A stretch of DNA of 64,000 nucleotides. Source: Ruditapes philippinarum (lineage: Eukaryota). Positions 14,845-49,359 of this stretch are shown piece by piece. Both the position numbers and the translations under genes were made by a program. Location of the stretch: contig NW_026852306.1 in assembly GCF_026571515.1 (NCBI RefSeq), positions 62,001 to 126,000 of the forward strand. The letters are read 5' to 3'. The number at the start of each line of letters is the position of its first letter. Within the stretch, counting starts at the first letter, position 1. Below the pieces are notes generated by a model. It was not told the DNA's origin and made no database searches. It saw nothing but the letters and a program-made list of their open reading frames with translations.

Positions 14845-17440
14845 TTAAAATGGTCGCCATGGGACTTCTTTTATCACGTGACCGATTTCATTTTCCTTGC
14901 CGTTTCCAATAGTAACAATATCTATACGATTGTCTGCATTATTTTCGTCATTATCCGAACAAGAATCATCCACCTTACTGTAGCCGGAAGACGAACAGTA
15001 CGAGGAGGTGGTTTCAGATGAAGAAGTGCTTGAGAAGCCAGAAGAAGAGCTGGAATCAAGACTTGAATGCACAAATGATGACGTAAGTTCCGGTAGAGCT
15101 TGATTTCCGTTTAAAATGGGTGAATATCCTGAAAAATTAAATTCTGGCAATGGCGATGTGTTAACTGTGTCATTTGGTCTTAGAGGCGTAGAGAGACGAT
15201 GTGTTTGTCTATTTTGATTGAATACATTATTCACATGTTTATTGTGATTTGTCATTTCCTGTCGTCTGCTTCTCGTGAGGAAAGCCTGGTGTAGATGATT
15301 GCTTAGGGAACCAGTCACTGTATCACTTGTGATTTTATTCCTTGCCAAATACGCCACAGCTTCTTGTGCACATGCCTTGTACCCTGCATTATAGGCAGCA
15401 GCTTCTGTTGCCATGGTAACAGATTGTTGTTGTCGTTGTAGCTGCGACAGATGATACACAGTTAAGTCTAAAATGTCTGCCTTGTCAACCCTTGTCATTG
15501 GAGCAGTCTGGAGATGAAAACAAATCGTTAAATGTTACAAAAGTGTTTGCAAAAAAGATTTTAATGTAAGGTGTGTGATATTTATTGGAAACATATATAC
15601 GTGTTCTGCATTGTTTTGTTCGGTTAACCATCATAGTATACACTCACTTAATAAATATATTTTTGTACAGACGAAAATCTAAAGCTTATTCAGTTCATAT
15701 ATAAATACATATTTGTATATTGAAAAATAATGTTGTCATATATTTGACATCCATTTGCTCGACTTATTAGTGATCGGCGTGGTGATCCAAATGAATGACT
15801 TCCTGAATGACTTCCAAATATATATTGGCGAAACATGGCATGTTTAATCTATGCAATATGTTGACATAATTATAGAGAAAACGTAATGCTTCAAACGTTT
15901 TCCAGAAAAGCAGCTACTAATTAGGAACACTTGCGTGTAAAACTTGATGCTTTGGTTATATTATATTACATTGTGTTGAAAAGTCTGTTCGATTAGCTAC
16001 TTCAGAAATGATATTCGTCTTTTCATTTTTCCCCACTCTAAATATTATATATTTTGAATTTCAATTGTACATGATTGCATGCTGCGTAAAACCGAACACT
16101 TATAAAATTACTTACATTTTCTTGAATAGTCTGTGCGATTAGCGACTTCAGAAGTGATATACTTTTGTTCATTCTTTCTCTTCTCTTCTTCTCCACCATT
16201 GGCTTCCGGATCTGCAAGAAGCATAATTTAAAATACTGTGTATGCACGTTGAAATTCTATTGGGCAAAAACAAATAATTTCAAGCACTAAGAAGCGTTTA
16301 AATTGTCCTATACAATATCTATACGCCCAGCTAAACGTTAAACAACGATAACGACATTGCTGTAGTTCTCCGATATGACTGATAGTAAGCAATAAGTAAG
16401 TTGGGGGAGATATGAATTCTGGTAAAGGGAAATCATTTTGATACTATTTATAGATCTATAATATTATTATATATATGCACATTTGTATAAATGTACTATT
16501 ATGCAGTTTAAAAGTTTTGAAACTACGTTATTTGATAGTACTATTACCTAGTAAAGGTACAAAGTAAAAACTCTACATTAAAGATCACTTAACGAGAAAA
16601 AAAATGTGAAGTACAATTAAACATATAGAAGAGGAGGGACTATTTATGATTTTAAAGCCCTTAACATCTAAATAAATCTTATCCCTTGATTGTTTATTTA
16701 AACATTCATTCAATCGGGAGAAATATTTAGATACCGTAACGGTTGTAAAATATCGCATAGCATTAACTAAGTTCAGAGTATCAGCACATTCCCTAGCCAT
16801 AGAAACTGGGAGATATGATGGTACTCTGAGAGAAAATAGATTATGCAAATGCTGTTCAATGGGAGTTTTAGAATCTGAATATCACTTTCTTCTTGTATGT
16901 CCGTTATACAGAGATCTAAGAATGAAATACTTTAAAGGATATTTTTGCAGATGGCCAACACTGAAGAAATTTGAAATTTTAATGTCGACAAATGTTAAAA
17001 GTAATGTTACCAACTTAGCAAAATATATTTACTTTGCATCAAAGTTACGAAATGACAGGTTATCAAATTTATGATGTGTTAATTGTTGTTATATACTAAA
17101 TTTCAAATTAAGTCTCGTACATTATTTTTACATTTTTTTATCGATGAGTAATTAAAATGTCAGCCAAATACGTCATTATGATTGTATTATTTTTTTCTAT
17201 GAACAATTGAAAATGAAGTCTCGTACGTTATTGTAATTGTAAATTTCCAACAGTATTCATATACCCTGTGTAAACCATTTCTCATGTATTTATGTTGTTG
17301 TTATTGCTATAAACTTTGTAAGTTTAAAGCGGAATAAAGTGTATTGTATTGTATTGTATTGTATTGATTGTACATTAAAAGATAAATACCTTTCTTGCGT
17401 AGGACATATCCTGTGAGTCAGATTTCTTAGCTCCGCCCAT
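14845..17440 (-). CDS. HES-like: Hairy/Enhancer-of-split (HES)-family bHLH-Orange repressor, copy A; exons 17440-17390, 16211-16116, 15507-14845; 269 aa; C-terminal WRPF
   Basis: MGGAKKSDSQDMSYARK|IRKPMVEKKRRERMNKSISLLKSLIAQTIQEN|TAPMTRVDKADILDLTVYHLSQLQ...YNAGYKACAQEAVAYL (Orange)...VPWRPF*. Basic-region proline is diagnostic of HES; GT-AG introns in phase 0. Confidence 0.95.
16583..17370 (+). mobile_element. 5'-truncated LINE (RTE-X-like C-terminal CCHC region plus 3' UTR) in intron 1 of HES copy A, antisense to the gene
   Basis: Reads EKYLDTV...RIALTKFRVSAHSLAIETGRYDGTLRENRLCKCC...ESEYHFLLVCPLYRDLRMKYF...LAKYIYFASKLR*, then AATAAA and a (GTATT)n tail at ~17333-17366. Candidate TSD TACATTAAA at 16574-16582 and 17371-17379. 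Clade assignment from motif memory only. Confidence 0.85.
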
Positions 17441-20137: not shown

Positions 20138-22062
20138 ATGGGCGGAGATAAGAAATCAGACACACAGGATATGTCCTACGCTAGAAAGGTATTTATATCT
20201 TTAACTCATGATTCAAGTGATACAGTTTTTTTTATAGATGTTAAAATTTTTAAATTTATTAATCTTCTTCTTTTCTAAAATATGATTTTCCTCTTTAAGT
20301 GAGCTTTAATGTTTGGTATTAATCACAGTATCTTTACTCTTTCCTCTTTCTTTAAAACATTAAAATTATTTTATATTTCTGTCTAATAATAACTAAATAT
20401 CTATTAATATTGCATTTTCTTTTCAGGACTTTACAACAGGAACATATATATTGTAAAATATTATTTTGTAAACCCCTTATGTATTTTATTATTACCTGGG
20501 TGAATAAAGATATTTGATTTGAATTGAATTGAACTAGGTAGTAATTATATCAAATGACGTATTTTCAAAACTTTAAAGCTACATTAATATATTATGTATA
20601 TTATACTACATTTGTATATAAAAATATATATATATGTAGATCTATATACAGTATTAAATGATTTTCCCCAACCAGAATTTCATATTCCCCCCCACCAAAT
20701 TCTTATTGCGAAATAGCTTACTATCAGCCATATCTAAGAACTACTGGCAATAGGGAATTCTCAGGTATTGGGTACACACGCTCTATGTTTTTGGGGTTTT
20801 TTTTGCAGATCCGGAAGCCAATGGTGGAGAAGAAGAGAAGAGAACGAATGAATAAAAGTATATCACTTTTGAAGTCGCTAATCGCACAGACTATTCAACA
20901 AAATGTAAGTTATAATGATATAATTGTTCGGTTGAACGTAGCTTGTAATCATGTACAATTGAAATTCAAAGTATGCCATGTTTCGCCGTTTACGTTTGAG
21001 CCTGATCCCCTCAGGATCAGTCATTCATTTGGAACACCACGCGGATCCTCAGGAAGTCATTCATTTGGAACACCACGCGCATCCTCAGAGAGTCATTCAT
21101 CTGGAACACCACGCGGATCCTCAGGAAGTCATTCATTTGGAACACCACGCGGATTACCAATGAGTTGCCAATGGATGTCAAATTTGTAAAAATATTATTT
21201 TTCGGTATATTTAGATATGAACTGAATAACCTTTATATATATTTATTATGTATATACTAAGATTTTTAATCAAAGAAATTAATACAGAATCAGTAAATAT
21301 GTTTCGAATAAATATTACAAACCTTATATTCAAATTTTCAAACATATATTAAGAATAACACTGTTGTAAAATTTATCGTTTTTTGTTTTTCAACTTCAGA
21401 CTGCTCCAATGACAAGGGTTGACAAGGCAGACATTTTAGACTTAACAGTCTATCATCTGTCGCAGCTACAACGGCAACAACAATCTGTTACCATGGCAAC
21501 AGAAGCTGCTGCCTATAACGCAGGATACAAGGCATGTGCTCGAGAAGCTGTGACTTATTTGGCAAGGACTAAAATCACGAGTGATACAGTGACTGGTTCC
21601 GTAAGCAATCATCTACACCAGGCTTTCCTCACGAGTAGCAGGCGACAGGAAATGACAAATCATAATAAACATGGGAATAATGTGTTCAATCAAAATAGAC
21701 AAACACATCGTCTTTCTACGCCTCTAAGACCAAATGACACAGTTAACATATCGCCATTGCCAGAATTGGATTTATCAGGGTATTCACCCATTTTAAACGG
21801 AAGTCAAGCTCTACCGGAACTTACGTCATCATTTGTGCACGGCAGTCTTGATTCCAGCTCTTCTTCTGGCTTTTCAAGCACTTCTTCAATTGAGACCACC
21901 TCTTCCTACTGTACGTCTTCCGGTTACAGTCAGGTGGATGAAACTTGTTCGGAAAATAACGAAGACGATATAGAAAATTATATAGACGTGGTTTCTATAG
22001 GAAAAGGTAAAGAAAATGAAATCGGTCATGTGATAAAAGAAGTCCCATGGCGGCCATTTTAG
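20138..22062 (+). CDS. HES-like: HES-family bHLH-Orange repressor, copy B; exons 20138-20188, 20809-20904, 21400-22062; 269 aa; C-terminal WRPF
   Basis: MGGDKKSDTQDMSYARK|IRKPMVEKKRRERMNKSISLLKSLIAQTIQQN|TAPMTRVDKADILDLTV...WRPF*. Same exon sizes (51/96/663 nt) as copy A. Confidence 0.95.
20205..20533 (+). mobile_element. LINE-like 3' UTR/tail insertion in intron 1 of HES copy B
   Basis: Segment has no counterpart in copy A. It ends AATAAA-gatatttgatt-(TGAAT)n immediately before homology with the copy A intron resumes (ctaggtagtaattatatcaaat). 5' boundary approximate. Confidence 0.55.
21004..21155 (+). repeat. 36-bp minisatellite, 4 copies, in intron 2 of HES copy B
   Basis: Unit ggatcctcaggaagtcattcatttggaacaccacgc. 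A single related copy lies in copy A intron 2 (~15772-15818, minus strand). Confidence 0.95.
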
Positions 22063-23280
22063 ACTTTCGTATCAGTTTTCTTGCTGAAAAGAATATACCA
22101 AATGTGCTATGTTTATTAATACTAATATTTTTATAACATTAATATGTTAAATTACTACTGTGTTTGTATATGTATGGAATCATTGAGTAAATTCTAAAAG
22201 AAATAGAAAGTTGTTATCTTTTTATCCAAATAATATAATGTTTAGAAGTAGTATAAGAATTATTGTTTAAATTAATGAAATATACCCGTCTTTTCAGAAA
22301 TAATAGATAAATGATCTACGCTGTGCATTGGCTTGAATTAAACAAAGCCTTTTATAATGCTAGAATATAAAGAATTCTTAAAATAGTGACATAAGTTACC
22401 TTTAAATTCAAATTGGCAAATGGAAAGTACAAAATCCCATTTACTAGAAATAACATTGGTCTTACGCACTGTCTTGAAAAATCATACTTTAAATATAAAA
22501 TTCTAGTATATGATTATGCTCATATTTCGTATTTGGTCGAAAATCGTCAGGCATATTTAACGATGAGTTCAGATATTATAATGTTGACGTATAATGTAGT
22601 TTTATACGCAAGAGCTGCTCATAAACACCTAAGTGTTTTAGTGATACTAATTATGTGATAATACACGTGTAATAAAATATGTGGAACTATGCAAGACAAA
22701 ATTTGATTGAAAACGTATAATTGTATATTCTTACACGCTTCACACTATTTCCCCTAAGCAACAGATTGTGCAATGAAGAGCATAATTACACGATATATGC
22801 ACAGCATAACAAGGGAATGCTTACACGTCATGTGGAGATTTTTTAAAAAAAACTTAAAGACCTAAGTCCTATAACATTCGGGTCCGCAAATTTCATATTT
22901 TTAAATTTTGCAATGAATTCCCACAAAGTGTTATTGTTGTATTCACGAACAAACCTATTCGGCAATTTCCGTCATAGTTCGAGAGCGGGTTTTTTTTAAT
23001 ACAGTTTGATTCAATTCAATTCAATTCTTTATTCAGCATATGAAAATTATATGTTCGTCGCCATTTATCATGGTGACGGCGGTTACCACGTTTTCCAACC
23101 AACCGCCATCTAACCGGTGCAACGTAAGAATACAGTTTAATGTTAACATAACACTTGTGGCATGTTGCAGGTTTTAGTTAATTTTATTTTTACATATTTG
23201 ATTTTTTTTAGATGATATTATAGTCATTATATTGAGGTATATATTAATTTTATTTTCCAGCTCTCAATAGAAGTAACATA

Positions 23281-23495
23281 TGAGCCGCGCCATGACAAAA
23301 CCAACATAATGGGTTTGCGACCAGCATCCGCGCAGTCTGATCAGGATCAATGCTGTTCGCTATCAGTTTCTCTACTTGCAATAGGGTTGGAAAGCGAACA
23401 GCATGGATCCTGATCAGATTGCGCGTATGCGCAGAATGGTCTGGATCCATGCTGGTCGCAAACGCACTATGCTGGTTTTGTCGTGACGCGGCTCA
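23281..23495. mobile_element. Palindromic MITE (TGAGCCGCG...CGCGGCTCA family)
   Basis: Whole-length imperfect inverted repeat (tgagccgcgccatgacaaaaccaacata ... tatgctggttttgtcgtgacgcggctca). Second copy at 31880-32099. Confidence 0.9.
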
Positions 23496-23583
23496 GTTGT
23501 TTTATGTGTATGTCAACTATAAAAATATTATATAGCACACCATAGCATCGCATGGCGCAGCAAAGCATAACATTAACGTAACG

Positions 23584-27516: not shown

Positions 27517-29223
27517 ATGAACAAAACCAATGTTACAGGCGGTGCAGCCCCCGGTCCCGGTGTTGGCATACAACTTGACGATGAGGATGACTTTGCCGAA
27601 CGGGATGTAGATAAATGGAACAATGTGCAGAAAATCGTCGTGGTAAGTGTATCTTTAGAGTAGTCATCTCTGCTTATTGACCAAGCCCCCTATTGCATTT
27701 ATATAACATATTAATCAGGCATTGGTAACCAAACTTTGACATTCAATTACTTTAGAATATATTTGAAGCTTTGCACCTCAGCATACAATCATAAAAATGC
27801 TATTTATTCAAGTTAAAGAAATGGAAATAATGAAGAGAATTCCTTTTTTTCCATATCAAAATATATAGTTAGGAGCACAGACGTCACATGATGATGAAAG
27901 TCATATGACGTAACGTCGAAATTCAAATGTAAATATCGGCCGTTACATAGAAAATCAATCGTCATTTTTTCCCTTTCTGTTTTATTTTTAAATTTTCGTA
28001 CCTACGTTCGTTATTGTTTGTCAAAAAATATCAAAATTATACAAAATAATGAACAATAAATTCAAAGCCTAAAAAATATAAAATATCAAAATATTGATAA
28101 AATTGTTTGTGATGGCAGGGATCTCTGTACTAATAAGGGAAGATAATTACGTAGGAGATAATATTCTACGCTTAATGCTGGATTCCAAATGACCAATCAA
28201 ACTAGGAATAACTTTAAATGGAGCACTTTAAATTTTAAAGAACTATTTTCTATGCTGATCCTATTTTATGTGTTCTATTTTTAGATTCTTTATGACGTGA
28301 ACATTGCATTTGCCATTATCCAATCAGTGATAGGCCTACTTCTATTCCTCACTATCCTTGACAAGAACCTGCGGGGAAAATCACAAATGTGGTACCTGTA
28401 TCACTTGACGTTACTCGTTATTTTCACCGGACTTTTTCTTCACCCATTTGCACACGGTGAGAATTATACAAAGGACAAACAGAGTTGTTACTTTTTGATG
28501 TACAGTGCGGAGTATATCTTTTTTGGTGTAGGGATGAACGTTATTCTAGTAAATTTGGAAATATTTTTCACAAAGATTCTTACGCTTCAGAAATGGGAGT
28601 CTAACCCGTTCTACAGATTTTTAATGTCGATGGCGCTCGGGTGGCTTATCGTCTGTATGATTATTTCCCACGTGATTATCAATAACAATTATGGAAGTCA
28701 GGACAAATACAAGTTCTGTTTTGTCCTCAAAGACCTATCAGTTCGACGGGCAAGAATTGTCTTTCGCGCTCTCATACCGGCAATCGTCTGCTTCCTGTTT
28801 TTAATTTGCACCGTAGTTACGTATTACCTGAAACGGTCACGGATCACTTTTACGACAATGACTGGTGAGTTGAAGGAAATCCGGACAGAGAGCCGCGACG
28901 ACGAATCACAATGGCTTATGTGTCAAGTCTTCATAAACATTGTGTATTTGACTCGAGCACTAACCATTGTGGCTTTACACTTCAACGGTATCATACGTAC
29001 TCCGGATGAATATTTAGTTGTTGTATTTGTTATATTTGTTCATGTACAAACACTGTACACTTTACCATTCTGCATGTTTTTCATTTACGACGTGCGCCAG
29101 TCACTGAAATGTCTCCTACTCAAGGTCATACAAAAATTGTCGTTTGGTAAACTAAGGGTAGGAGATGACTTGGAGAATCTGGCTGTAAGTTTTGGAAACC
29201 CATCCCATGTCGGGACCGATTAG
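27517..29223 (+). CDS. Divergent rhodopsin-like (class A) 7TM receptor; exons 27517-27642 and 28285-29223; 354 aa
   Basis: N-terminus MNKTNVT with two N-glycosylation sequons; seven hydrophobic segments; ICL1 KNLRGK..W.YL..L; TM3 Cys (QSCY) and ECL2 Cys (KFCF); TM4 Trp; TM5 Pro (LIPAI); helix-8-like DVRQSL. DRY and NPxxY are degenerate (EIF, LPFCMF). GT-AG phase 0 intron. Confidence 0.8.
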
Positions 29224-30764
29224 GAGATTAATTTTGAGTATTACATTAACTTAAACATATAATGATGAAGTTCAAGCTTCGTAATAGATTTATTATCAAT
29301 GATATACTAGTAGTTTCCAATATGCATATATTTGTATACAACAATTAAACAGATATATAGTCGTATGTGTTGTTGATTTTAAATATAAGAAAAACCATAT
29401 GACGTCTTAGTAAATGTGCCGCATTTTCATGATAAGTTTGTGAAAGCACTAAAGAGTATAGGCCTAGATTTGTTAGACATTGTCATGGAATTTCTTTTTT
29501 TCAAGTACGGAATTTAAGAAGACTGATCACCAAGCGTATCTGAATACATGAATTTGTTGCGTTACTTCAAATGAATATGCTCAAAAATTGCCGATCAAGT
29601 CCAGGCTGTTAAACGTGTATAAATAGAAATAGATACCAAGGTTTTGTTTTAAGAGAATTAAGTATACTTAAGCTATGCAACATTTTAGTTTATAGACGTC
29701 TGGATGCATTATACAGAAACAAAATATGAAGGTCAGCATCAGCAATGTATTACCTAATCCCTAGCCTTCGTAACTCGGAGAATAACGGAATTTTTATATC
29801 TAGATCGGAACTTTTTTTCCCACAACCTATGGAAACAAAAAGATATATAAATTAACCCTAAATGCTCCCGGCACGGCAAGATGGGTTTTAGCCCAAGTAT
29901 TTTTGCGCGAAAACCAAAGCATCCGGCTTGGGCAGCGCGTAAAAGGGGGGTAATCATTTTTTCTTTTGAAAATGACTCATAAAATAGATAACCGTTGCAT
30001 TATGAACGAACGAGAAAGAATGAGCGGATTATCTGCTGAACAGTAAATGCAACATGTGTCAATTTTTGTGTCCTATAGTCATTCTTTTGATGTTACGGTA
30101 ATGTACAATGATACAGGTGACATTCCTCACTAACAAGGTAAAGATCTTTCGGAATGTAAAGTGAATTTGGCTAGTGTCAACATCCATTTTTAAGTTGGTA
30201 AGCATACTTTCCTCTTCTTTTTTTACATATTTTGCAAGTTATATGCTACTTAATTGAGGCTCTGTGAAAGTTGCAGATAAGTTTTAAACATGGTTATCTA
30301 TACATGCAATATATGTTTTGAAGGCCATAGCTTTAAAGATGCAAATGCAACTCACCTGACTAAAGTTATTTAAACTTTTGCCTAATTAAAAATAAAGTCT
30401 ACGTACCAAAAGTAGTTAAATTACCAAGAAGCATACTAAATTTAACTTTGTGTAGAGGTTTATATAAAATCTACGTAAGAAAAATAGTCAAAACATGACC
30501 TTTTTGCAAGGAGCATAACTAACATTACTTTGCGTAACGGTATATTGAAAATAAAAACAAAAAATAATTTATACATGTAAAAAGCAAAAGCGGCGTGCCT
30601 AATTAAACGACATTTTTGATTGGCTGACTACACTGAATGTAGCAACATATAGATCTACATGTGTTATTTATGATTCATCCTTTCGTTAAACCCAACAGCT
30701 GATTATCGCCGAAAATTAGATATTCTGCCAGGTGAAAACTTTTGTTTAGAAAACGAAAGTAGCC

Positions 30765-33700
30765 ATGTACCCGGATATAGAACCGTTTTCGACTGGGATG
30801 TTAAAAGTGTCTGAACTTCACAGTATCTACTATGAGGAGTCCGGAAATAAAGATGGCAACCCAGTTGTTTTTCTGTAAGTACATTTTAAAACAGATTTAC
30901 AATCCATTAATCATATTACAAATTATGATAACATTTTCGCAATTTATCTTTTTTAATTAAGTTAAATATATTTAAAGTTTCTATTTATTTGAAGTTTCTA
31001 TCAGTAGAGCACCGATCAATATAAACCGTCATAATACCATTTGTTTTTAAATTGCAGTTTAATTGCAATTAATTCCTAGGAATAAGTTGCATTTACTACA
31101 ATGTACATGTACACAGTTTTAGAAAATAATGGGCAACAATCCCTTTTTACAGCTTAATTCTGTTCGGTCTGTTCCGTCATATTTCGGTAAAATACGTACA
31201 GACACAAAATGATATCAGACGAAATGATATTATATTTATCGTCTGGTAACTTATAATTTATTCAACAACTTGTCCCTATTTTATGACCAGGTCAAGATAC
31301 TGTACATGTTTGATTAGTACCTATTTATACAATCAATGTACATAATCTTAATGATACAAATTTCACAGCGTTTATGTGGGGGACTTTGAAGCACATATTC
31401 ATATTAAACCAGTATTTAGTTGGGTTTTTTATTAAGAAGAAAAATCCAAACAAATATGTTTGTTCAATATTTGATACCCTTTATATACAAAAATAAGGAT
31501 TTTTTTTTACAAAAACAAGAAGTTCAAATGTGTATAAAAACTTGTACGTTGTCAAATGCATATTATTTGAAATTGATTTTGTAAATGATAAAACATTTCT
31601 TTTTAATTATTGACTCTTCGAGCATGTAACCAAATCCTAAATATTAATGATCTTGACTTTTTAGAAAATTTCGCTGGTAATTAAAACTGTACATACTGCA
31701 TATACTAAAATATGCATAGGTAATTGATATTCATTTTAATTTTAATAAGAGTGCATATACAACATGCAGTAATATAGCAAATAATGAACAAGTGAAATAA
31801 TAATTACAATGTAATATCATCATTAAACAGACATAAACTAATATACTTGTAACATGTGAGTTAAGAAACAAAACACATTTGAGCCGCGTCACGACAAAAT
31901 CAACATAGTGGGTTTGCGACCAGCATGGATCCAGACCAGTCAGATCAGGATCCATGCTGTTCGCTATCAGATTCTCTACTTGTAATAGCGTTTGTAAGCG
32001 AACAGCATGGATCCTGATCAGACTGCGCGGATGCGCAGGCTGGTCTGGATCCATGCTGGTCGCAAACCCATTATGTTGGTTTTGTCATTACGCGGCTCAT
32101 TTTTTCTCGTATAGGCATGGAGGACCAGGATGGGGTACTACAACTAGAGACCGTACATTTTTCGACCCTAAAGTTTACAGAATTATTCTTATAGACCAAA
32201 GAGGAACTGGAAAATCAACCCCAGCAGCCGAAATAAGAGTGAGCATTATCCAGAAGTAGTTCAAATTTATCGTGTACCAAATCTGAAAAAAAATTATGTC
32301 GGATCTTTCACCTAGCATACAGATTTTTTACTCATAAAATTTGTTTTTACGTCGACCATACCGTCAAGGATAACTATTTACGAGAAAGATATCTTGATAT
32401 TCATAAATGCACAAAATGATAATCAAATGTAGAAAAGAGATAAGAAACCGGTGTCGCGTAAAAATCACGCACTTGTTGATAATTTAATTTCGCGCATGAA
32501 TTTGTTATCTTACTTTCATTATGCATTTTACCTGTCCTGTTTTGAATTTGGAACATTCCATTACAAGATTAAGGAATTTCAATATCAAAGAATAGCCACT
32601 AAGCAGCAGAAATTAAATGGCTAACCAGGGCTGCGTTTCGTGGTGAAACCCTAAGGATAAATCAGATAAAGGAACCTTGTAAGAAATATATCCATGGATA
32701 GGATAACAAATAAAACTATGATTTTTAGGAAAACACAACTTGGGATCTTGTAAATGATATGGAACAACTTAGACAAAAACTCAATATAGATAAATGGGTT
32801 GTATTTGGAGGAAGCTGGGGATCAACTATGGCCTTAATCTATGCTGAAGCACATCCAGATAGAGTGAAGGCCCTTATAATCCGTGGAATTTACACATTTA
32901 GAAGGTGAGTACGAAGGGTAAAACTTCAAATGAAAATTACTTAATGCCGTGTTGCATTGTCATGTTCCGTGCTGCAGAGTCCAATGTCGTGTTGCATTGT
33001 CATATATTGTATCGTATCGTCAAGTGTCGTGTCGTGTTGCTATTTGTTACGTAAAATGCAGAAATCTTATTAATAGACCTCCTTCAACCAAGACGATAAA
33101 TAAGTATTTTCGATACAATGTTTTTGTCGACCATCAATCACCTATTGTCTATGAATCCATGTACCGATGATGTAAATCATTGCGATAAATATGTCCATTT
33201 TGGTTTACTTTTGAACTGGGCTTTACTTATTTCAGGCGGGAACTGGCGTGGTTCTATCAAGACGGAGCAAGTTTTGTATTTCCAGATGCATATGAAGAAT
33301 TTGTGAAGCCGATTCCTGAGGTAATATATCACTAACAGTTCCAATGTTTACAGCAATAGTTGCGGTATGTTTGGTGGCTGATGTACGCCATGCTATTTTG
33401 CATTTTGCCAACTGTGCCGTATCGTTTTGTATTTACATTCTCGACGCGAACAAAAGCAGAAGGATGACAAAATCAGACAAAATACGACACATATAGCGTG
33501 TCTTTTATTCGTATTGCATCTTCCGTGTCTTTGTTTTTTCGCGGCAAAAATGCAACAATACAAAAACACGAAGAAACGACAATCAAACTTTGTCCTGTTT
33601 TCACTTTTAACGTTTTTTCCTTTATTGCATTTCCGCTTTTCGTTGCACATTTACATTTTTGTATTTTTGCTTTTATTAGTTTGATATACTAAAGTATTTT

Positions 33701-35888
33701 ATATCGATTGTGTTGGAAGCTTTAAGCTTATTAAAGCACTTTCGAATCCGCACTGAACCAACCAGAACTAAGCAATGGGTGTAAAGTTTGTTTTTTGTTT
33801 TGTTTGTTTTTTCTCTCGGAAACAACGGCTTGCCCCTAACGGGGTTTGAACCCACGCGGCCAGCTATCCTTGTCCGACGCGTTAAGCAATCGGCCACGCC
33901 GCCACTATTTTTGCTTTGTTACATTCTTCTTGTGTTTACTGTATGTTTGAGTTTTACTTCTCTCCACTGCTCTTTTTACTTGCATATTGCTAAACCTGAG
34001 CACAACAACAAGAAGCGACACTCCTCTACATCCGCCTTACATTTCTTTATTACAATGATCGAATATCACTGAGAGCTCAGTTTCCTTGTTACCATTACAG
34101 ACTGAGAGATACGACATTATTGGTGCATTTTATCGTAGGTTAACTGGCAATGACGAGAAGGCAAAATTAGACTGTGGAAGGGCCTGGGGGATATGGGCCA
34201 TCATGACAGCTCGGCTTTACATTGACCAACACGCTCTTGGTCAAATAGAGCAAAATTTAGAAAGTTGGGTACAGAAAGCAACTATAGAATGGTAAAATGT
34301 TATTTAAAACTTCAAAGTTCGTAAGATTAGGGAGTTTTACAATTGTTTGTATAACAGAATAGATCGAATGTATGTCTCGATGCATATATGACATTGACCT
34401 TTGATCTTTGTTTAGGCTTGTCATAGTCATTTTGTTTATCTACATTCAAACATGTGAACAAAGACCACCTAAAGGAGAGACCAAACAACATTGCCCATGA
34501 CTTTACTGGTGAAGGGTGACCCCAGGCGCGCCTCTGAACATTATTTCAGGCAAAAACGGGTACCTGAATAAAATCACCGTCATATCTTAAGATAGCTTGG
34601 TAGATTTCTCACATGACGAATCCGAAGACGCTAAAGCGGCTTTAACCAACAGCGGTGAGAGGCAAGTGGTTTAAGTCTAACGACCTTAACCACTCAGACA
34701 CGGACGACGTGCAAACATTATAAACAAAACGTGCGAAGATGATAAATGATATGCAAATAAAATAATATATTTTGTGTCCATTTTTTTCACTAGCCACTAT
34801 GTTGTAAACAGTGCATTCCTGAAGACCGATGACCAAATTTTATCGAATGTTGACAAGATACGTCACATTCCAACGAGTATTATCCATGGTAGATATGATA
34901 TTATCTGTCCCACAGAGACGGCATGGCAACTTCACAAGGTAAATGTCGTCAGAATAGACAGACATGGTATGTGACGTCATTTCTTAACAGTATAGCAAGC
35001 AGCAGTTGAGCACGCATACCCATTTCTTTCTTTATATTAAAGACCACAGTTTGGGTCCAACATTTTTCATTAACATTTTTTCTCAGAACTGAGGACGCAC
35101 TTTATAGCTGCTTGTAATATCTTTAAAATGACGTCACATACCTCATGGTTCTGTCACGATTGTCACAAACAAATAAATGCATCAGTCTATTATTGGAATA
35201 TCAACCCCACAATCGGACAAGTGCAAAGGGAAGAAACTATTTGTTTACATTTCCACAGTCCCGGCACTACCGGGCAAATACTGTACAGTAGTACTATAGT
35301 CTATAGTTTATTTTCGTGCCAACCAAAAAGCGTGCAATATGTGTCCTTACCCGAAGGACAAAGACAATGGTGGAAATTTAATCATCTGACTCAGTGGCTG
35401 TTCAAACAGGTTAAGATTTTGCAATGGATTTTTTAAACCAACATAATTATATGTCTTGTACTACTTAATAAATATTCAAATAAAGTTTCAACAGAGAATA
35501 TTTGCATAAGTATACTTGACAGTAGACACACTTTTATAATACGTATGCAAGATTGATATAAAATCCTGGAAAGACAGATATTTTTTTATTATTTCCCAGA
35601 AATAACAAATAGATCTTCATCAGAGTAGAATGTTAATTGATATGTTAGTGTCTTCGTGCTGTTTTTCTTAAATTACTGCTCTTTAAGCCCGTTACTAAAT
35701 TTAAAGCATATAAAGTATTTATAAATACGATTACATAACACATGTATGTTGCAATTTTTCAACCATGTCTATTTTAGCTCCTTCCTGACGCTGAATTTCA
35801 TTTAATACCTGATGGCGGACACAGTACCAAAGACAAAGGATTGGAAGAAAAATTGGTAGAAGTAACCGACAGATACAAATACTTGTAG
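30765..35888 (+). CDS. pip: Proline iminopeptidase / prolyl aminopeptidase (alpha/beta hydrolase, peptidase S33); exons 30765-30874, 32115-32238, 32729-32904, 33236-33320, 34101-34291, 34794-34938, 35778-35888; 313 aa
   Basis: MYPDIEPFSTGMLKVSELHSIYYEESGNKDGNPVVFLHGGPG, DQRGTGKSTP, NTTWDLV.DME.LR, GGSWGST (Ser), HGRYDIICP (Asp), DGGHS (His). All six introns are GT-AG with consistent phases; total 942 nt; AATAAA at ~35937. Confidence 0.95.
31880..32099. mobile_element. Palindromic MITE (same family as 23281-23495) at the 3' end of pip intron 1
   Basis: tgagccgcgtcacgacaaaatcaacatagtg ... ttggttttgtcattacgcggctca. Confidence 0.9.
33695..33905 (-). mobile_element. tRNA-derived SINE in pip intron 4
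   Basis: Minus strand: A-box TGGCCGATTGCTTAA, B-box GGTTCAAACCC, body ctttacacccattgcttagttctggttggttc, tail ggattcgaaagtgctttaataagc...acaatcgatataaaata. Confidence 0.75.
34495..34705 (-). mobile_element. tRNA-derived SINE with Meta-like central domain in pip intron 5
   Basis: Minus strand: ctgagtggttaaggtcgttagact...cacttgcctctcaccgctg head, then tgtgagaaatctaccaagct...caggtacccg...tgcctgaaataatgttcagaggcgcgcctggggtcacccttcacca, resembling the MetaSINE consensus as I recall it. Confidence 0.7.
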
Positions 35889-38657: not shown

Positions 38658-40561
38658 CTATTCTTTTGACAGACCTAGTGTTTTTTCATACTCTTTAAGC
38701 TGTTCAACAAAACCTGCATTAGGTCGAGCCGATGGTCGTTTACTTTTCACATACGAAAAGGCATCTTCGTATGTCATTTTTTCCGTTCTCATAAGATATC
38801 CGGTTGTGAACGTAGATGCCCTACTAACACCGGCATTACAGTGTAGGAACACGCAACCACTTTGTCTACCTTCGTCAATGAACTTGAAAGTGTCATCGAA
38901 ATAGCTAAGAACTTTTGTATCAGGTGTGTCATTGACCTTGACATTCAGGTATTTGAGTTTGTCTGGGAAATAGTTTTTCACATACGTTCCTATGTTGACG
39001 ATGTGCGTAACTCCATATCTAGCAAGAATATCCCACTCGGCAGCCACATCTTGTGAGCCTGTAAAAAAAGACAAATAAAGCTATCTTTATAAAGAATTTA
39101 AGAGTTGGAATTAAACATTTTAAAAAGTACATACATTGATTTGGCCCTTTCAAGTCCATAAATCTACAAGCCAGTTCAACAAAGGAAACCAAGATATATT
39201 GGTTGCTTATGATTTGCATAGCCTAGGCAAAAACAAATAAAACAGTAAAACTTACTGAATAAAGATACAGAAATATAATGTCAATGCAAGCTTTGCCATT
39301 TAAAAGGGACATAACTCTATAAAACGTGATGGAACAGATTGAAATTATCTGAAACTCTGAAATACATAATCAAGCACAAATATACTAGTGATACACCTAG
39401 GATTGATCTATTAACGAAAATCCCGAAAATGAATTAAGAAAAATAATGATTTTGCAGTAATATCACATAGACAACCAAATATTAATGACTATTTTCACAT
39501 AGGTCCCTTGCACATGCTCAGGTGAATGATAAATGCATATTCTTTTTTTTCAATGCAATGAAAACACATAAAAGTCATTGAAATTAATCTACTGCTGGAT
39601 TATTTTATTTAAGCACAAACTGACAAACTTGTAGCAACATTTACCAAAACTTAGATTGACCATTAAGATCAAATTAGTTTAATCCCTGAAAACTTGACAT
39701 TGATATCAAGACCTTAAAAGGTCTCAAAAATTTATAACATCTTATCTGTTAAATAAAAATTTTGCCTTATAATTTAATGAAGTAAAAAATAAAATCTTAA
39801 CTTACCAAATATGAGATTGTCTCTGATTTCCCCAACTTGAAAGTCCATTAGGACGTCCGCTACAAACCCATACTGGTCTCGGTTAGTGACCTCTGTTCTG
39901 ATGTTTCCAGAGTCATCCTTATACTCCCGTATAACTCTACCATCCTCTGTTCTTACAGCTGTGTCTGAAATAGAAGATGTACTCTGAAATGGAATATTTA
40001 CTCTTAATCATGTCTGAAATACATGCTTACTCTTAATCGTGTCTGAAATATAGTATTTACTTTTAATGATTAGATGACCTTATGTAATATATTTACTCTA
40101 AATGATATTACAAATGAAATATTTACTCTAAATATTGTCTGAAATAGAATATTTACTCTAAATAATATCTTAAATAGAATATTTATTCTCAATAATGTCT
40201 GAAATAGAGTCTTCCACTTATTTATCTTTTTAAAAATATGACTTTTTTACTCATTAAAAATAACAATTAATAATAATTATTATCATTCTCCATTTTAATT
40301 GTTGTAAATGCAAAGTTTCAGATAATATGAATTATTTGTATGCTTGTTCTTTATAGTAGGTAGTTATTTCAGACAATCACAAGTCATTTTATATGCAAGC
40401 TTTGAAGTTTGCAATTATATAAATACTGGTTATAACTACATGTACTTGCTTAGCAAAAAATATTACTAGCAATATACAATAATGATTTTCATACAGTAAG
40501 TACCTGTTTTGCGCAGCTGTTTCTTGTTAAAACTCTGCAACTGTGACAAGAGACTTGACAT
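38658..40561 (-). CDS. DUSP19: Dual-specificity protein phosphatase 19 orthologue; exons 40561-40504, 39964-39806, 39058-38658; 205 aa
   Basis: MSSLLSQLQSFNKKQLRKTDTAVRTEDGR...YGFVADVLMDFQVGEIRDNLIFGSQDVA...VTHIVN...DTPDT...VFLHCNAGVSRASTF...RPSARPNAGFVEQL. Collinear with vertebrate DUSP19 (GYVQDLSSDLQVG...LLLGSQDAA; HCNAGVSR). Phase-1 GT-AG introns. Confidence 0.93.
39964..40212 (-). repeat. ~30-bp tandem repeat abutting the DUSP19 exon acceptor; units contain TTTCAG|A
   Basis: tctgaaa at 39964, 39983, 40013, 40042, 40138 and 40198, within a gtctgaaatagaatatttactctaaataat-like unit. Confidence 0.9.
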
Positions 40562-45624: not shown

Positions 45625-48330
45625 TTATTTCAGACAGTATACGTCTGCTTTGTCTGAACGACGCTCCGTCAAAACGAGGAATGACCCATCATCTCGGTTT
45701 GAAATATGGATGTGTTGCGGGCGTGTCAATCCGAGATCACGTGACAGAATCGTCATCACAGAAGCCCCGCCCTCTGATAACATGAGGACATTTGCAGAAC
45801 GGATGGCAGTGACATATACATTATCTTCCCGGTCGACAGCTGTACTATAAGGACGATCAAGCTCTTTATGCGTGAACACGTACAAAACATCACCTCGAGT
45901 TGACATCCGCACAAGAGACCCTTTAGTCCCAGACTGGCCCTCGCAGCAGATGTAGAGCACGTGATCTGTTCTTGAACGAGTAACTGATACAGGTCTCAAG
46001 ATATTAGGATTTTCCCTGGAAGCAAAGTTGACCACTTGAAGCTCTCTGCCATTGTCGTCAAGAAAGGCCACTTGGTTCCCATCATCTTTTGTTGTCACAA
46101 CAAATTTTCCGTCAACAATGGCGATTCCCCAACATTCACGTCGTGTAACTATGCATCTTTGTGTACTCATTGATGACCCAATAACACGAATGACATGAAT
46201 TGTCTTCTCGAGCGGAACCGTTACAGCAATTTCATTTGAAGATAAACATGCGACATTCCACGGTTCCTTTGCCATATCTAAATGGCTTACATATGAAAAC
46301 TCGTGATTGAAAAGTTTGACGCGACTGTTGTTACAATCGATTAGAATAAGTCTTTTATCAGGAAGTTCAACGGAGCCAGTAATTGTGCATTCTCTTATGT
46401 CTCCTTCAACCTTAATAACCACACTTTTCAGTTTAGTGCATTGTTTCGGCGTAGTGTTGCTACTTGTTATTGGTTCAAATGTTAATGTTTTTGAATTACA
46501 CTTGTTCTGAGCTGAACAGGCGGAGTAAATGGAAGAATTTTCGTAAAGTGGCGACGCAGGGTTATCGTCAGCTTGTGTTGGTCGGAATAAACGAGCGAGT
46601 TGATTGATGGCAGACGAAACGATAGGTTTTACTTCGGGGCTCATGCTTGATGCAGATGAAGATCTATGACGAAACAGAAATTTCGTATTTCCATTGGCAC
46701 TCTCATCATTTTCAGCACGTTCAGACATACGCTTACTACTAGAAATGTCACCAACTCCCGACATTACATTAACATAATGCCAGACACGGTTCTTTGGTTT
46801 TTCACTTGTTGGAGGTTTAGTCAAAGCTCCGGGTAATGTCTTTGCCTCAACGTCACCGGGTGTTTCGCAGCCGTTTATTCCAGCGGCATCTTGGTTGGAG
46901 TTTGCTTCACTTTGACCAGTTGAAAATACCGAATCTTCGTCATCACTCAAATCAACAACATTTTCCTTTGCTTCGTTTGTTGGCGCAATATTGATCTCCG
47001 TATTGTGACTATAGTCTTGGTTTCGTTTAGGACTCGAGCATGATCTAGGCAGAAAGTGACGTATTCCATGGATATCTGGCCGTTCAGGACGTGGTCGGAC
47101 TACCGGTGTTGGAGCAGTGGACTCAATAGGCACGGTTTTTGGTCTCTTTGGCTCTTTATGCGCGCGATGTGGTCTTTGTTCCGTATTTGTTCCAGACTGG
47201 CTCGAAGTTGCGTCATTTAATGTTGGACGCGCTATTATTATCGCTCGTGGCGAAACATGACGTATAGGCGATCGTGAAGGGAGGTCATCAGCAGAAACGT
47301 CTCGAGGTGAAGGGATGAATGACTCGTTCAGAGTATTGCCCCTTGACATTAATTCTGGGGGTACCTTCAAGTTTGATTCAAAGTGATTTACGTTGACACT
47401 TCCTAGTTTACTAAAGGAGTTTAGAAAGGCAAGTAGTTCATTTTCAATGGCAAATTCTACTTTGATAACTTTTATATTTGAGTGACACCCGTGTATGAAA
47501 GATGATTGACTTTTGATGTCATTCTCGATCGTTGAGATCATCTCGAACGATTGTGACGAGACAGGAAGCTCACTTAATGTTTTTCCTGACGTTTCTATCT
47601 CCGCCTTTATCCGCTCGTATTTTTCACATTGAGCTTTCAAAACAACAACTTCTCCGTCGTGCTGTACATTAACTTGATCTTTGATGTCAGTCTCAAAGGA
47701 ATTAAGCAACGCTTCTACTTTCCCGCGAAAATCTTTTACTTCCGTCATAATGGACGTCTTTTCAGTAGACAATTGCTCTATGTTCGACTTCAGATGCAAG
47801 ATGGCATCATTTAGATAAACTAGTAGGTTTTCTACGTCAGTCTTGACGATTGTGAATCTGGTTGTGAATTCAGCGTGCTCTTCAATGTCGAGAACTTCGC
47901 ACTGGCGATGTGCATTTTTGAAACACTTGCTGCACAATTTGACATTGTGTTCGACACAGAAGAATTCAATCAGTTTGCCTGCATGCTCTGCACAACGTTC
48001 AACAGCTGTCGGAGTTTCGCGTTTTTCGAGCATTTCATGGAAGCTTGAGTCAAGCAACGAGACAAGCAAATGGTTCAGCGGGAACAAAGTAGACCAGGTG
48101 TCAATGCGGGTAAAGGCGCGTGGTGCAGGTGTTTGCGCTCGACAAACTGGACATGGGAAGTCGGACACTAAGACCCTCTCACGTGACTTGTTGACGATGT
48201 ATGAATGAAGGCAGGATTCACAAAGTGTGTGTTGGCATGGTAACATGCGAGGTGTCTTGTATATGTCCATACATATTGGACAGCATAAAATGTTGTCCTG
48301 TGGAGAGTGACTTGACTTCGTGGTAGCCAT
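45625..48330 (-). CDS. Single-exon-CDS TRIM E3 ligase (RING, B-box2, coiled coil, ~300-aa S/P-rich linker, NHL-like beta-propeller), TRIM2/3/56-like; 901 aa
   Basis: RING CPIC...LPCQHTLCESC...CPVC; B-box CAEH...FCVEHNVKLCSKC...HRQC; heptad-rich region; C-terminal repeats (LILIDCNNSRVKLF, PWNVAC, CWGIAI, RPVSV, RPYSTAVDREDNVYV). Acceptor tttcAG about 35 nt upstream of the ATG. Confidence 0.92.
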   Translation of the reverse strand: MATTKSSHSPQDNILCCPICMDIYKTPRMLPCQHTLCESCLHSYIVNKSRERVLVSDFPCPVCRAQTPAPRAFTRIDTWSTLFPLNHLLVSLLDSSFHEMLEKRETPTAVERCAEHAGKLIEFFCVEHNVKLCSKCFKNAHRQCEVLDIEEHAEFTTRFTIVKTDVENLLVYLNDAILHLKSNIEQLSTEKTSIMTEVKDFRGKVEALLNSFETDIKDQVNVQHDGEVVVLKAQCEKYERIKAEIETSGKTLSELPVSSQSFEMISTIENDIKSQSSFIHGCHSNIKVIKVEFAIENELLAFLNSFSKLGSVNVNHFESNLKVPPELMSRGNTLNESFIPSPRDVSADDLPSRSPIRHVSPRAIIIARPTLNDATSSQSGTNTEQRPHRAHKEPKRPKTVPIESTAPTPVVRPRPERPDIHGIRHFLPRSCSSPKRNQDYSHNTEINIAPTNEAKENVVDLSDDEDSVFSTGQSEANSNQDAAGINGCETPGDVEAKTLPGALTKPPTSEKPKNRVWHYVNVMSGVGDISSSKRMSERAENDESANGNTKFLFRHRSSSASSMSPEVKPIVSSAINQLARLFRPTQADDNPASPLYENSSIYSACSAQNKCNSKTLTFEPITSSNTTPKQCTKLKSVVIKVEGDIRECTITGSVELPDKRLILIDCNNSRVKLFNHEFSYVSHLDMAKEPWNVACLSSNEIAVTVPLEKTIHVIRVIGSSMSTQRCIVTRRECWGIAIVDGKFVVTTKDDGNQVAFLDDNGRELQVVNFASRENPNILRPVSVTRSRTDHVLYICCEGQSGTKGSLVRMSTRGDVLYVFTHKELDRPYSTAVDREDNVYVTAIRSANVLMLSEGGASVMTILSRDLGLTRPQHIHISNRDDGSFLVLTERRSDKADVYCLK

Positions 48331-49359
48331 TCGAAGTGTATTGAGCTACGTCTAAGACATCTATCTGAAAGGAGATTGAAGATCGGGTGAGCGGAAAGAT
48401 ATCATTGATAAAGTGGAATAAAGATATGCTGTAGTGGCCACTTAATTTACATGTGACATACAAATATTTGCTTATATTAAACTATTATTCTGTGCCAAAT
48501 CATATCTTGCCTTGCAGATCAAAATTTAATATTATTTTTATATTTGTGCAGATAAATACATGTAGAAAATTATACAATGATTTAGTCGTACTCAGTAAAA
48601 AGTTAGAAGTGATAATAACGTCATAATCGACGCCATATTTGAACAGGAACGAAAGGGCATTGTAGTGTAATCGTATTATTTTTATTCTATCTCTTCTAGT
48701 TTTTAACCGAAATGATTCGGCATTAATTTTTAATTGTTGAAAGATATTTGGTTAGAGGTAAGATTTTGGTAAAAGCGATAAACGTCTTTGCTCATATAGC
48801 TTTTTGTAAGGCAAGACCAAAATTGCTAAATTGTAAATAACCTTAAGATAAGTCGTATTTACTCATTTGTTCCTTTTTCTACAAATTGCTTATACATATG
48901 CTTTATTATTTTGCTCCCCTCGCCGCCGGTTAAAACATCAATATAATTTTATTTCGTTTCCTTCACAGAGCATGTTCGTTACATAACGTATAATTCCCGC
49001 AAAACTTTTATTGATTATTTCTTTGAAGGTACTTCCATCGAGTGAATTCAATGTTAGGGGATATTTTCTGATGCCCTTAATTATGCGCGCGACATCATGC
49101 TAAGCACAAGTTGTATGATATTGATTTTCATGTCAAACAAAGCGGCAATGGGATTTTTTTTTGTATTTCATTAGTCAATACTGTTGATAATGAGACAGAC
49201 AGATGTTAACAGGCATTTCAGATATATTAAAATGTATTACCATTTTTTGCCATATGATTCACCAAAAAGATTTAGATGTGAATTATACGCTTTATTTGTG
49301 ATTGATAAGTAACTATTTCTAGATATGTCAACAATGTGTGCCTAATTATAATATATTAA

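What the first reader, a model, noticed from the sequence alone, without database searches (positions are those of the whole stretch)
32116..34803. Proline iminopeptidase with intact triad but a rebuilt substrate pocket
Seen: Ser (32813), Asp (34897) and His (35820) are intact. However, the oxyanion loop is HGGPGWG (Trp at 32131 where Gly/Ser/Ala is usual); the conserved AW..WE reads AWGIWA (GCC at 34197); RGIF reads RGIY (32891); and RIE.HYF reads TIECHYV (34801). Established, using Serratia marcescens numbering from memory: Glu204 and Glu232 anchor the substrate's free N-terminal amine, and Phe139 and Phe236 line the proline pocket. The equivalents of E204, F139 and F236 are all changed here. 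Inference: a neofunctionalised S33 hydrolase acting on a non-prolyl or N-blocked substrate (amidase/esterase), not a dead gene.
Basis: partly seen in the sequence, partly recalled or inferred. Interest (0 to 1): 0.7.

Follow-up and report, generated by a model that had tools for sequence, protein, structure and literature searches.

The report
Clam proline peptidase duplicate, rebuilt pocket
A clam keeps an old, spliced and still-conserved second copy of its proline-trimming enzyme in which the cutting residues are intact but three conserved pocket residues are changed, so it likely cuts a different, still unknown substrate.

Summary
The motifs belong to a 7-exon gene (30765-35888, +) encoding 313 aa, identical to NCBI XP_060603013.1 (Ruditapes philippinarum). 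Triad, HGGP loop, Arg130 and Glu228 (Serratia E232) are intact. The E204, F139 and F236 equivalents are Ala, Tyr and Val, against 118, 117 and 116 of 119 closest homologues. The genome holds a canonical paralog with the same six introns. Synonymous sites between the two are saturated, and this copy evolved 3-4 times faster. It is not dead: a public run holds a contig spliced across all exons, Ala198 is unchanged in 9 of 9 assessable contig pieces from four studies, and listed variants are 27 synonymous to 12 non-synonymous (pN/pS about 0.13). Changed specificity is likely. Similar pocket changes arose separately in scallop and Lingula duplicates, and 24 of 104 distant homologues also lack this Glu, so it is a variant, not a new kind. 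The substrate is untested. No earlier scan note covers it.

The parts
30765..30874 (+). Exon 1 coding part, residues 1-37, start codon at 30765; no in-frame upstream ATG in 30500-30764
   Evidence: covered by spliced contig in run X1
32115..32238 (+). Exon 2, residues 38-78, HGGP loop followed by Trp43 (32131)
32729..32904 (+). Exon 3, residues 79-137, nucleophile Ser107 (32813), Arg130, Tyr133 (32891, = Serratia F139)
33236..33320 (+). Exon 4, residues 138-165, single copy of the 4b type; Phe143/Tyr144 (= Y149/Y150) kept
34101..34291 (+). Exon 5, residues 166-229, cap helices; Ala198 (34197, = E204), Lys224, Thr226, Glu228 (34287, = E232, kept); most diverged exon, 48% identical to the paralog
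34794..34938 (+). Exon 6, residues 230-277, Val232 (34801, = F236), catalytic Asp264 (34897), Cys267
35778..35888 (+). Exon 7, residues 278-313, catalytic His292 (35820), stop at 35886-35888; an AATAAA follows about 50 bases downstream

Best explanation
This is an old, spliced duplicate of the clam's S33 proline iminopeptidase, under purifying selection, whose catalytic triad is intact and whose proline pocket is altered, so it likely still hydrolyses an amide bond but likely prefers a bulkier or substituted N-terminal residue over plain proline. Shown: gene, changes, paralog, splicing, constraint, fold. Inferred: Ser107-His292-Asp264 attack the amide as in Serratia PAP; the one remaining cap glutamate (Glu228) still holds a substrate amine; Glu-to-Ala at 198 and Phe-to-Val at 232 enlarge the S1 site and remove one negative charge; Tyr133 adds a hydroxyl; Phe-to-Lys 224 and Arg-to-Thr 226 reshape the same helix. 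The canonical paralog would keep the housekeeping proline-release job. The substrate is unknown.
For: Triad and 12 of 12 checked catalytic-core positions kept. AlphaFold model pLDDT 96, TM 0.96-0.98 and rmsd 0.9-1.2 A to solved proline iminopeptidases. Of 90 columns at least 95% conserved, 9 are changed, including 3 of the 4 such pocket columns named in PMC9147577 (hypergeometric p 0.003, post hoc). Relative-rate counts 59:14, 50:18 and 50:11 against the paralog; longest end branch of both trees. Canonical paralog with the same six intron positions, pS 0.75. Spliced contigs. 27 synonymous to 12 non-synonymous listed variants, pN/pS 0.13, p 5.5e-10; exon 5 alone 11:9, pN/pS 0.22, p 0.001. Roles of E204, E232, F139, Y149, F236: review PMC9147577, section 2.2 read; Glu pair binds the N-terminal charge: PMC2827410, one section read.
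Against: No activity data. dN/dS on the branch could not be computed because dS is saturated. Departures from consensus are only moderately enriched in the cap (10 of 44 against 12 of 118), and exon 7 is as diverged as exon 5, so general acceleration explains part of the pattern. No orthologue with Ala198 was found in another species. Two raw RNA runs (6% and 19% read) gave no depth in the bins over exons 3-7. Serratia E204Q keeps a few percent of activity (recalled, paper not held), so residual proline activity is possible.
Confidence: 0.55

Rival explanations
1. One reading: a hydrolase for N-blocked or uncharged amides or esters, for example of dietary or foreign compounds, that no longer needs a free amine.
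For: One of two amine-binding glutamates is gone by a two-base change, a Lys appears at 224, and no new acid appears near the pocket by sequence. The scallop duplicate has Lys at the same Glu position.
Against: Glu228 is kept and is invariant in the 118-row alignment. Arg130 and the full six-helix cap are kept. Esterases of this superfamily have a much smaller cap (PMC2827410). All fold and profile hits rank proline iminopeptidases far above esterases.
Confidence: 0.2
2. A weakened, tissue-restricted proline iminopeptidase: the duplicate still removes N-terminal proline, less efficiently, and the pocket changes are tolerated drift because the paralog covers the function.
For: Passes the prolyl aminopeptidase equivalog cut-off, 399.5 against 259.75 bits. 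Phe143, Tyr144, Cys267 and Glu228 kept. Phe-to-Tyr is conservative. Not seen in two raw RNA runs. E204Q residual activity (recalled).
Against: Three of four highly conserved pocket columns changed while the catalytic core is untouched. Ala198 is held across variant classes up to about 10% apart. Purifying selection continues, which is hard to explain for a redundant poor enzyme.
Confidence: 0.2
3. A decaying or non-catalytic copy.
For: Fast evolution, no orthologue found elsewhere, no signal in two raw RNA runs.
Against: Open frame despite saturated synonymous divergence, spliced contigs in four studies, no coding indel among the listed differences, pN/pS 0.13, intact triad.
Confidence: 0.05

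Closest known systems
Prolyl aminopeptidase S33.001 of Serratia marcescens (1QTR, 1WM1), Xanthomonas campestris (1AZW) and Glaciozyma antarctica (5YHP); TIGR01249
   Same: Fold (TM 0.96-0.98), 43-49% identity, triad, HGGP and GGSWG motifs, R136, Y150, E232 and C271 equivalents.
   Different: E204 to Ala, F139 to Tyr, F236 to Val, plus F224K, R226T and G43W in clam numbering.
Canonical paralog in the same genome (G000:C6551; NCBI XP_060598186-8, P0121/P0003/P0122)
   Same: 66% identity, same six intron positions, same exon lengths except exon 5 (+3 nt).
   Different: The paralog keeps WE, RGIF and RIECHYF, has an N-terminal extension and two alternative exon 4 copies; this gene has neither.
Other pocket-altered animal duplicates: scallop P0054/P0131, Lingula P0048, unnamed P0064, Mercenaria P0005
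   Same: Intact triad and Glu228 with changes at the same sites: scallop has Lys at 198 in two species; Lingula has Tyr133 and Leu232; P0064 shares Tyr133, Lys224 and Thr226.
   Different: Separate origins: AU tests reject a clade with P0064 (p 0.006) and with Lingula P0048 (p 0.003); the scallop copy groups with its own paralog (100/99). None was found characterised in my searches.
PepL (leucyl) and VinJ (alanyl-polyketide amidohydrolase)
   Same: Precedent that this fold is retuned to other aminoacyl amides (PMC2827410; PMC11284099 passages; VinJ 3WMR is a weak hit).
   Different: Distant subfamily, about 20% identity; no direct relationship.

Membership tests
Peptidase family S33, proline iminopeptidase type 1 (TIGR01249) by homology | Alpha/beta hydrolase core with helical cap | tested here: met
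Peptidase family S33, proline iminopeptidase type 1 (TIGR01249) by homology | Ser-Asp-His triad in GxSxG, RYD and GH motifs | tested here: met
Peptidase family S33, proline iminopeptidase type 1 (TIGR01249) by homology | Score above the curated cut-off | tested here: met
   399.5 against 259.75 bits
Functional prolyl aminopeptidase (S33.001 type) | Two cap glutamates (E204, E232) binding the N-terminal amine | tested here: not met
   E232 equivalent kept, E204 equivalent is Ala; role
Functional prolyl aminopeptidase (S33.001 type) | Hydrophobic proline pocket F139, Y149, F236 | tested here: not met
   Tyr133, Phe143 (usual in this set), Val232
Functional prolyl aminopeptidase (S33.001 type) | Release of N-terminal proline | not testable with these tools
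   needs an assay
EstA-type esterase | Small cap without amine-binding glutamates | tested here: not met
   full cap and Glu228 kept
Pseudogene | Broken frame, no spliced transcript, or neutral variation | tested here: not met

The most novel reading that the evidence does not exclude
Filter- and deposit-feeding invertebrates have repeatedly and independently duplicated proline iminopeptidase and rebuilt the same pocket positions (clam, scallops, Lingula, P0064) to handle one shared class of non-proline dietary or algal compounds, forming a convergent, uncharacterised detoxifying or digestive hydrolase type. A loose lead is that a 'probable proline iminopeptidase' transcript rose 14.85-fold in scallop digestive gland after domoic acid injection (PMC8150855, Table 3 passage; which paralog is unknown).
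Probability: 0.12. Interest if true: 0.7.

Novelty: new variant of a known kind. Interest (0 to 1): 0.4.

Why it matters
It is a clean natural experiment in how an exopeptidase pocket is retuned: a canonical and a rebuilt copy sit in one genome, and both are small soluble proteins that can be assayed side by side. Databases label it a probable proline iminopeptidase, which is likely wrong about specificity. If the repeated pocket changes in bivalves and brachiopods serve one substrate class, they would point to an unknown digestive or detoxifying activity. Otherwise it is a good but ordinary case of divergence after gene duplication.

Tried and rejected
Assembly error: rejected, the change needs two bases and recurs in four studies. 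Retrocopy or bacterial transfer: rejected, six introns shared with the paralog. Deep orthology with the Lingula or P0064 variants: rejected by AU tests. Dating the duplication: unresolved; a clade with the Ruditapes paralog is not rejected (p 0.43). Branch dN/dS: not computable, dS saturated. Orthologue search: none among the 120 listed of 7997 hits, the 150 listed representatives, longer proteins with exon 5 (1 hit among 7 candidates, the protein itself) or shorter proteins (1 hit among 8, 44% identity). One search listed no holder on record as RNA. ESM Atlas gave only proline iminopeptidase clusters. The primary Serratia, Xanthomonas and Thermoplasma structure papers were not held, so mutant kinetics, the oxyanion residues and the roles of R136, Y150, A270 and C271 are recalled. 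The supplement of PMC8150855 could not be read; it may say which scallop paralog responded. Paper searches listed no study of this gene or of pocket-altered mollusc copies; that covers only the open library. Earlier scan notes: nothing relevant. No complex prediction was run.

Full report
The gene. The window is AT-rich eukaryotic DNA. A search with exon 5 returned one protein, identical to this model and annotated by NCBI as probable proline iminopeptidase of Ruditapes philippinarum, XP_060603013.1.

Numbering and conservation. Alignment to the Serratia marcescens structure 1QTR gives S107=S113, R130=R136, Y133=F139, F143=Y149, Y144=Y150, A198=E204, E228=E232, V232=F236. A review (PMC9147577, section 2.2 read) names F139, Y149, F236, E204 and E232 as the substrate-recognition residues. 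A second paper (PMC2827410, one section read) says the cap glutamates bind the substrate's N-terminal charge. Among the 119 other proteins listed (the best 120 of 7997 hits), position 198 is Glu in 118, 133 is Phe in 117, 232 is Phe in 116, 228 is Glu in 118 with one gap, 224 is Phe in 110 and 226 is Arg in 111. Position 43 is Gly in 102, so it is tolerant, although Trp occurs in none. Of 90 columns at least 95% conserved the protein changes 9, the joint highest count with a Lingula duplicate. Three of the nine fall on the four pocket columns in that class (p 0.003, post hoc because the finding was chosen on them). All 12 catalytic-core positions I checked are kept. By sequence no new acidic residue appears near the pocket.

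Fold. The AlphaFold model from a 118-row alignment has mean pLDDT 96 and pTM 0.93. It matches 5YHP, 1AZW, 1WM1 and 1QTR with TM 0.96-0.98; the next folds score about 0.6. It passes the TIGR01249 cut-off.

Paralog and history. The genome holds a canonical copy on contig C6551 with HGGPGGG, RGIF, WE and RIECHYF, and a partial, frameshifted near-copy of that gene on C5444. The canonical copy has the same six intron positions and 66% identity. Synonymous sites are saturated (pS 0.75) while pN is 0.19, so the duplication is old and branch dN/dS cannot be had. Both trees place the protein among venerid, Mya and Dreissena sequences with the longest end branch (0.65 in the quick 55-row tree; 0.87 in the careful 22-row tree). 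Relative-rate counts against the paralog are 59:14, 50:18 and 50:11 with three outgroups. A sister relation to the Ruditapes paralog is not rejected. No orthologue was found in another species.

Is it alive? In run X1 one 1263-base contig covers the 5' region and the exons without introns: six exon pieces are listed, and exon 4 shows as an 85-base step with a variant at the same depth. Exon 4-5 junctions show in X1, X2, X3 and X13, and exon 5-6 junctions in X1 and X13. These runs are only guessed to be RNA, but joined exons imply a spliced transcript; no intronless copy appeared in the genome searches. Of 12 contig pieces on exon 5, 10 cover codon 198; 9 can be judged and all 9 are unchanged, and one ends too close. 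Val232 is seen in both contigs that run into exon 6. Trp43 and Tyr133 could not be judged, as the first table was cut (109 rows not shown). The 39 distinct listed coding variants are 27 synonymous and 12 non-synonymous, pN/pS 0.13, p 5.5e-10; exon 5, listed without a cut, gives 11:9 and 0.22. Against broad expression: two raw RNA runs, 6% and 19% read, gave no depth in the bins over exons 3-7; their tissues are unknown.

How unusual? Less than it first seems. Two scallop proteins have Lys at the E204 position, a Lingula duplicate has Tyr133 and Leu232, and the unnamed P0064 shares Tyr133, Lys224 and Thr226. Changed sites overlap more than a flat null expects (11 of 24, 9 of 22, 9 of 24), but sites differ in tolerance, so those p values overstate it. 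AU tests reject common origin with P0064 and with the Lingula copy. Among 150 distant representatives, 104 had a full triad and ungapped pocket segments (46 dropped); 24 of the 104 lack Glu at 198 (10 have Asp) and 27 lack it at 228 (cap alignment may slip in distant rows). Pocket remodelling is therefore a recurring theme in this family.

Mechanism. Shown: intact catalytic core, altered pocket, splicing, constraint. Inferred: the enzyme still forms an acyl-serine on an amide; Glu228 still holds an amine; Ala198 and Val232 open the S1 site and remove a charge. That fits a bulkier or substituted N-terminal residue best (0.55). An N-blocked or ester substrate (0.2) and a weak residual proline peptidase (0.2) remain open; decay is unlikely (0.05). 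Recalled and not checked: Serratia E204Q keeps a few percent of activity, F139A loses much more, R136 reads the P1' side, and the oxyanion hole comes from the HGGP glycine and the residue after the serine.

Verdict. A real, well-supported pocket variant of a known enzyme family, produced by gene duplication. It is an S33 member by homology but fails two sequence features of a true prolyl aminopeptidase. Interest 0.4.

Noticed in passing
L004:4639-4731 and L004:2844-2928 (minus strand; G000:C6551): The canonical paralog has two tandem versions of exon 4 used in different NCBI isoforms (P0003, P0121), and Mercenaria has the same pair (P0007, P0123). One version changes the Y149/Y150-equivalent pair (FY to YN or FN), so alternative splicing may also tune the pocket.
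   Followed up: partly
L011:3865 to L012:3336 (G000:C5444): Partial near-copy of the canonical gene (exons 4-7) with frameshifts in exon 6, mostly 84-94% identical to C6551; a haplotig with errors or a pseudogene.
   Followed up: partly
window 34101-34291: Public contigs fall into classes up to about 10% apart within single runs (0 against 8-17 differences); deep alleles or a further copy missing from this assembly. All assessable ones keep Ala198.
   Followed up: partly
P0054, P0131 (scallops): A scallop duplicate has Lys at the E204 position in two species; a proline iminopeptidase transcript is second in the list of genes raised by domoic acid in Pecten maximus (PMC8150855), paralog unknown.
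   Followed up: partly
window 14845-15534 (-) and 20662-22062 (+): Two near-identical Hairy/HES-type genes (Hairy_orange hits; HLH hit at 20662) in opposite orientation, both ending in WRPF rather than the usual WRPW (usual motif recalled).
   Followed up: no
window 28285-29223 (+): Intronless 312-codon frame with several hydrophobic stretches, GPCR-like by eye, no Pfam hit.
   Followed up: no
window 38658-39080 (-) and 45625-48345 (-): A dual-specificity phosphatase exon and a 906-codon RING/B-box (TRIM-like) frame.
   Followed up: no
window 31876-32108: High-copy short repeat with internal inverted structure just before exon 2, also at 23276-23510 and many times on C6551; it dominates RNA read depth here.
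   Followed up: no
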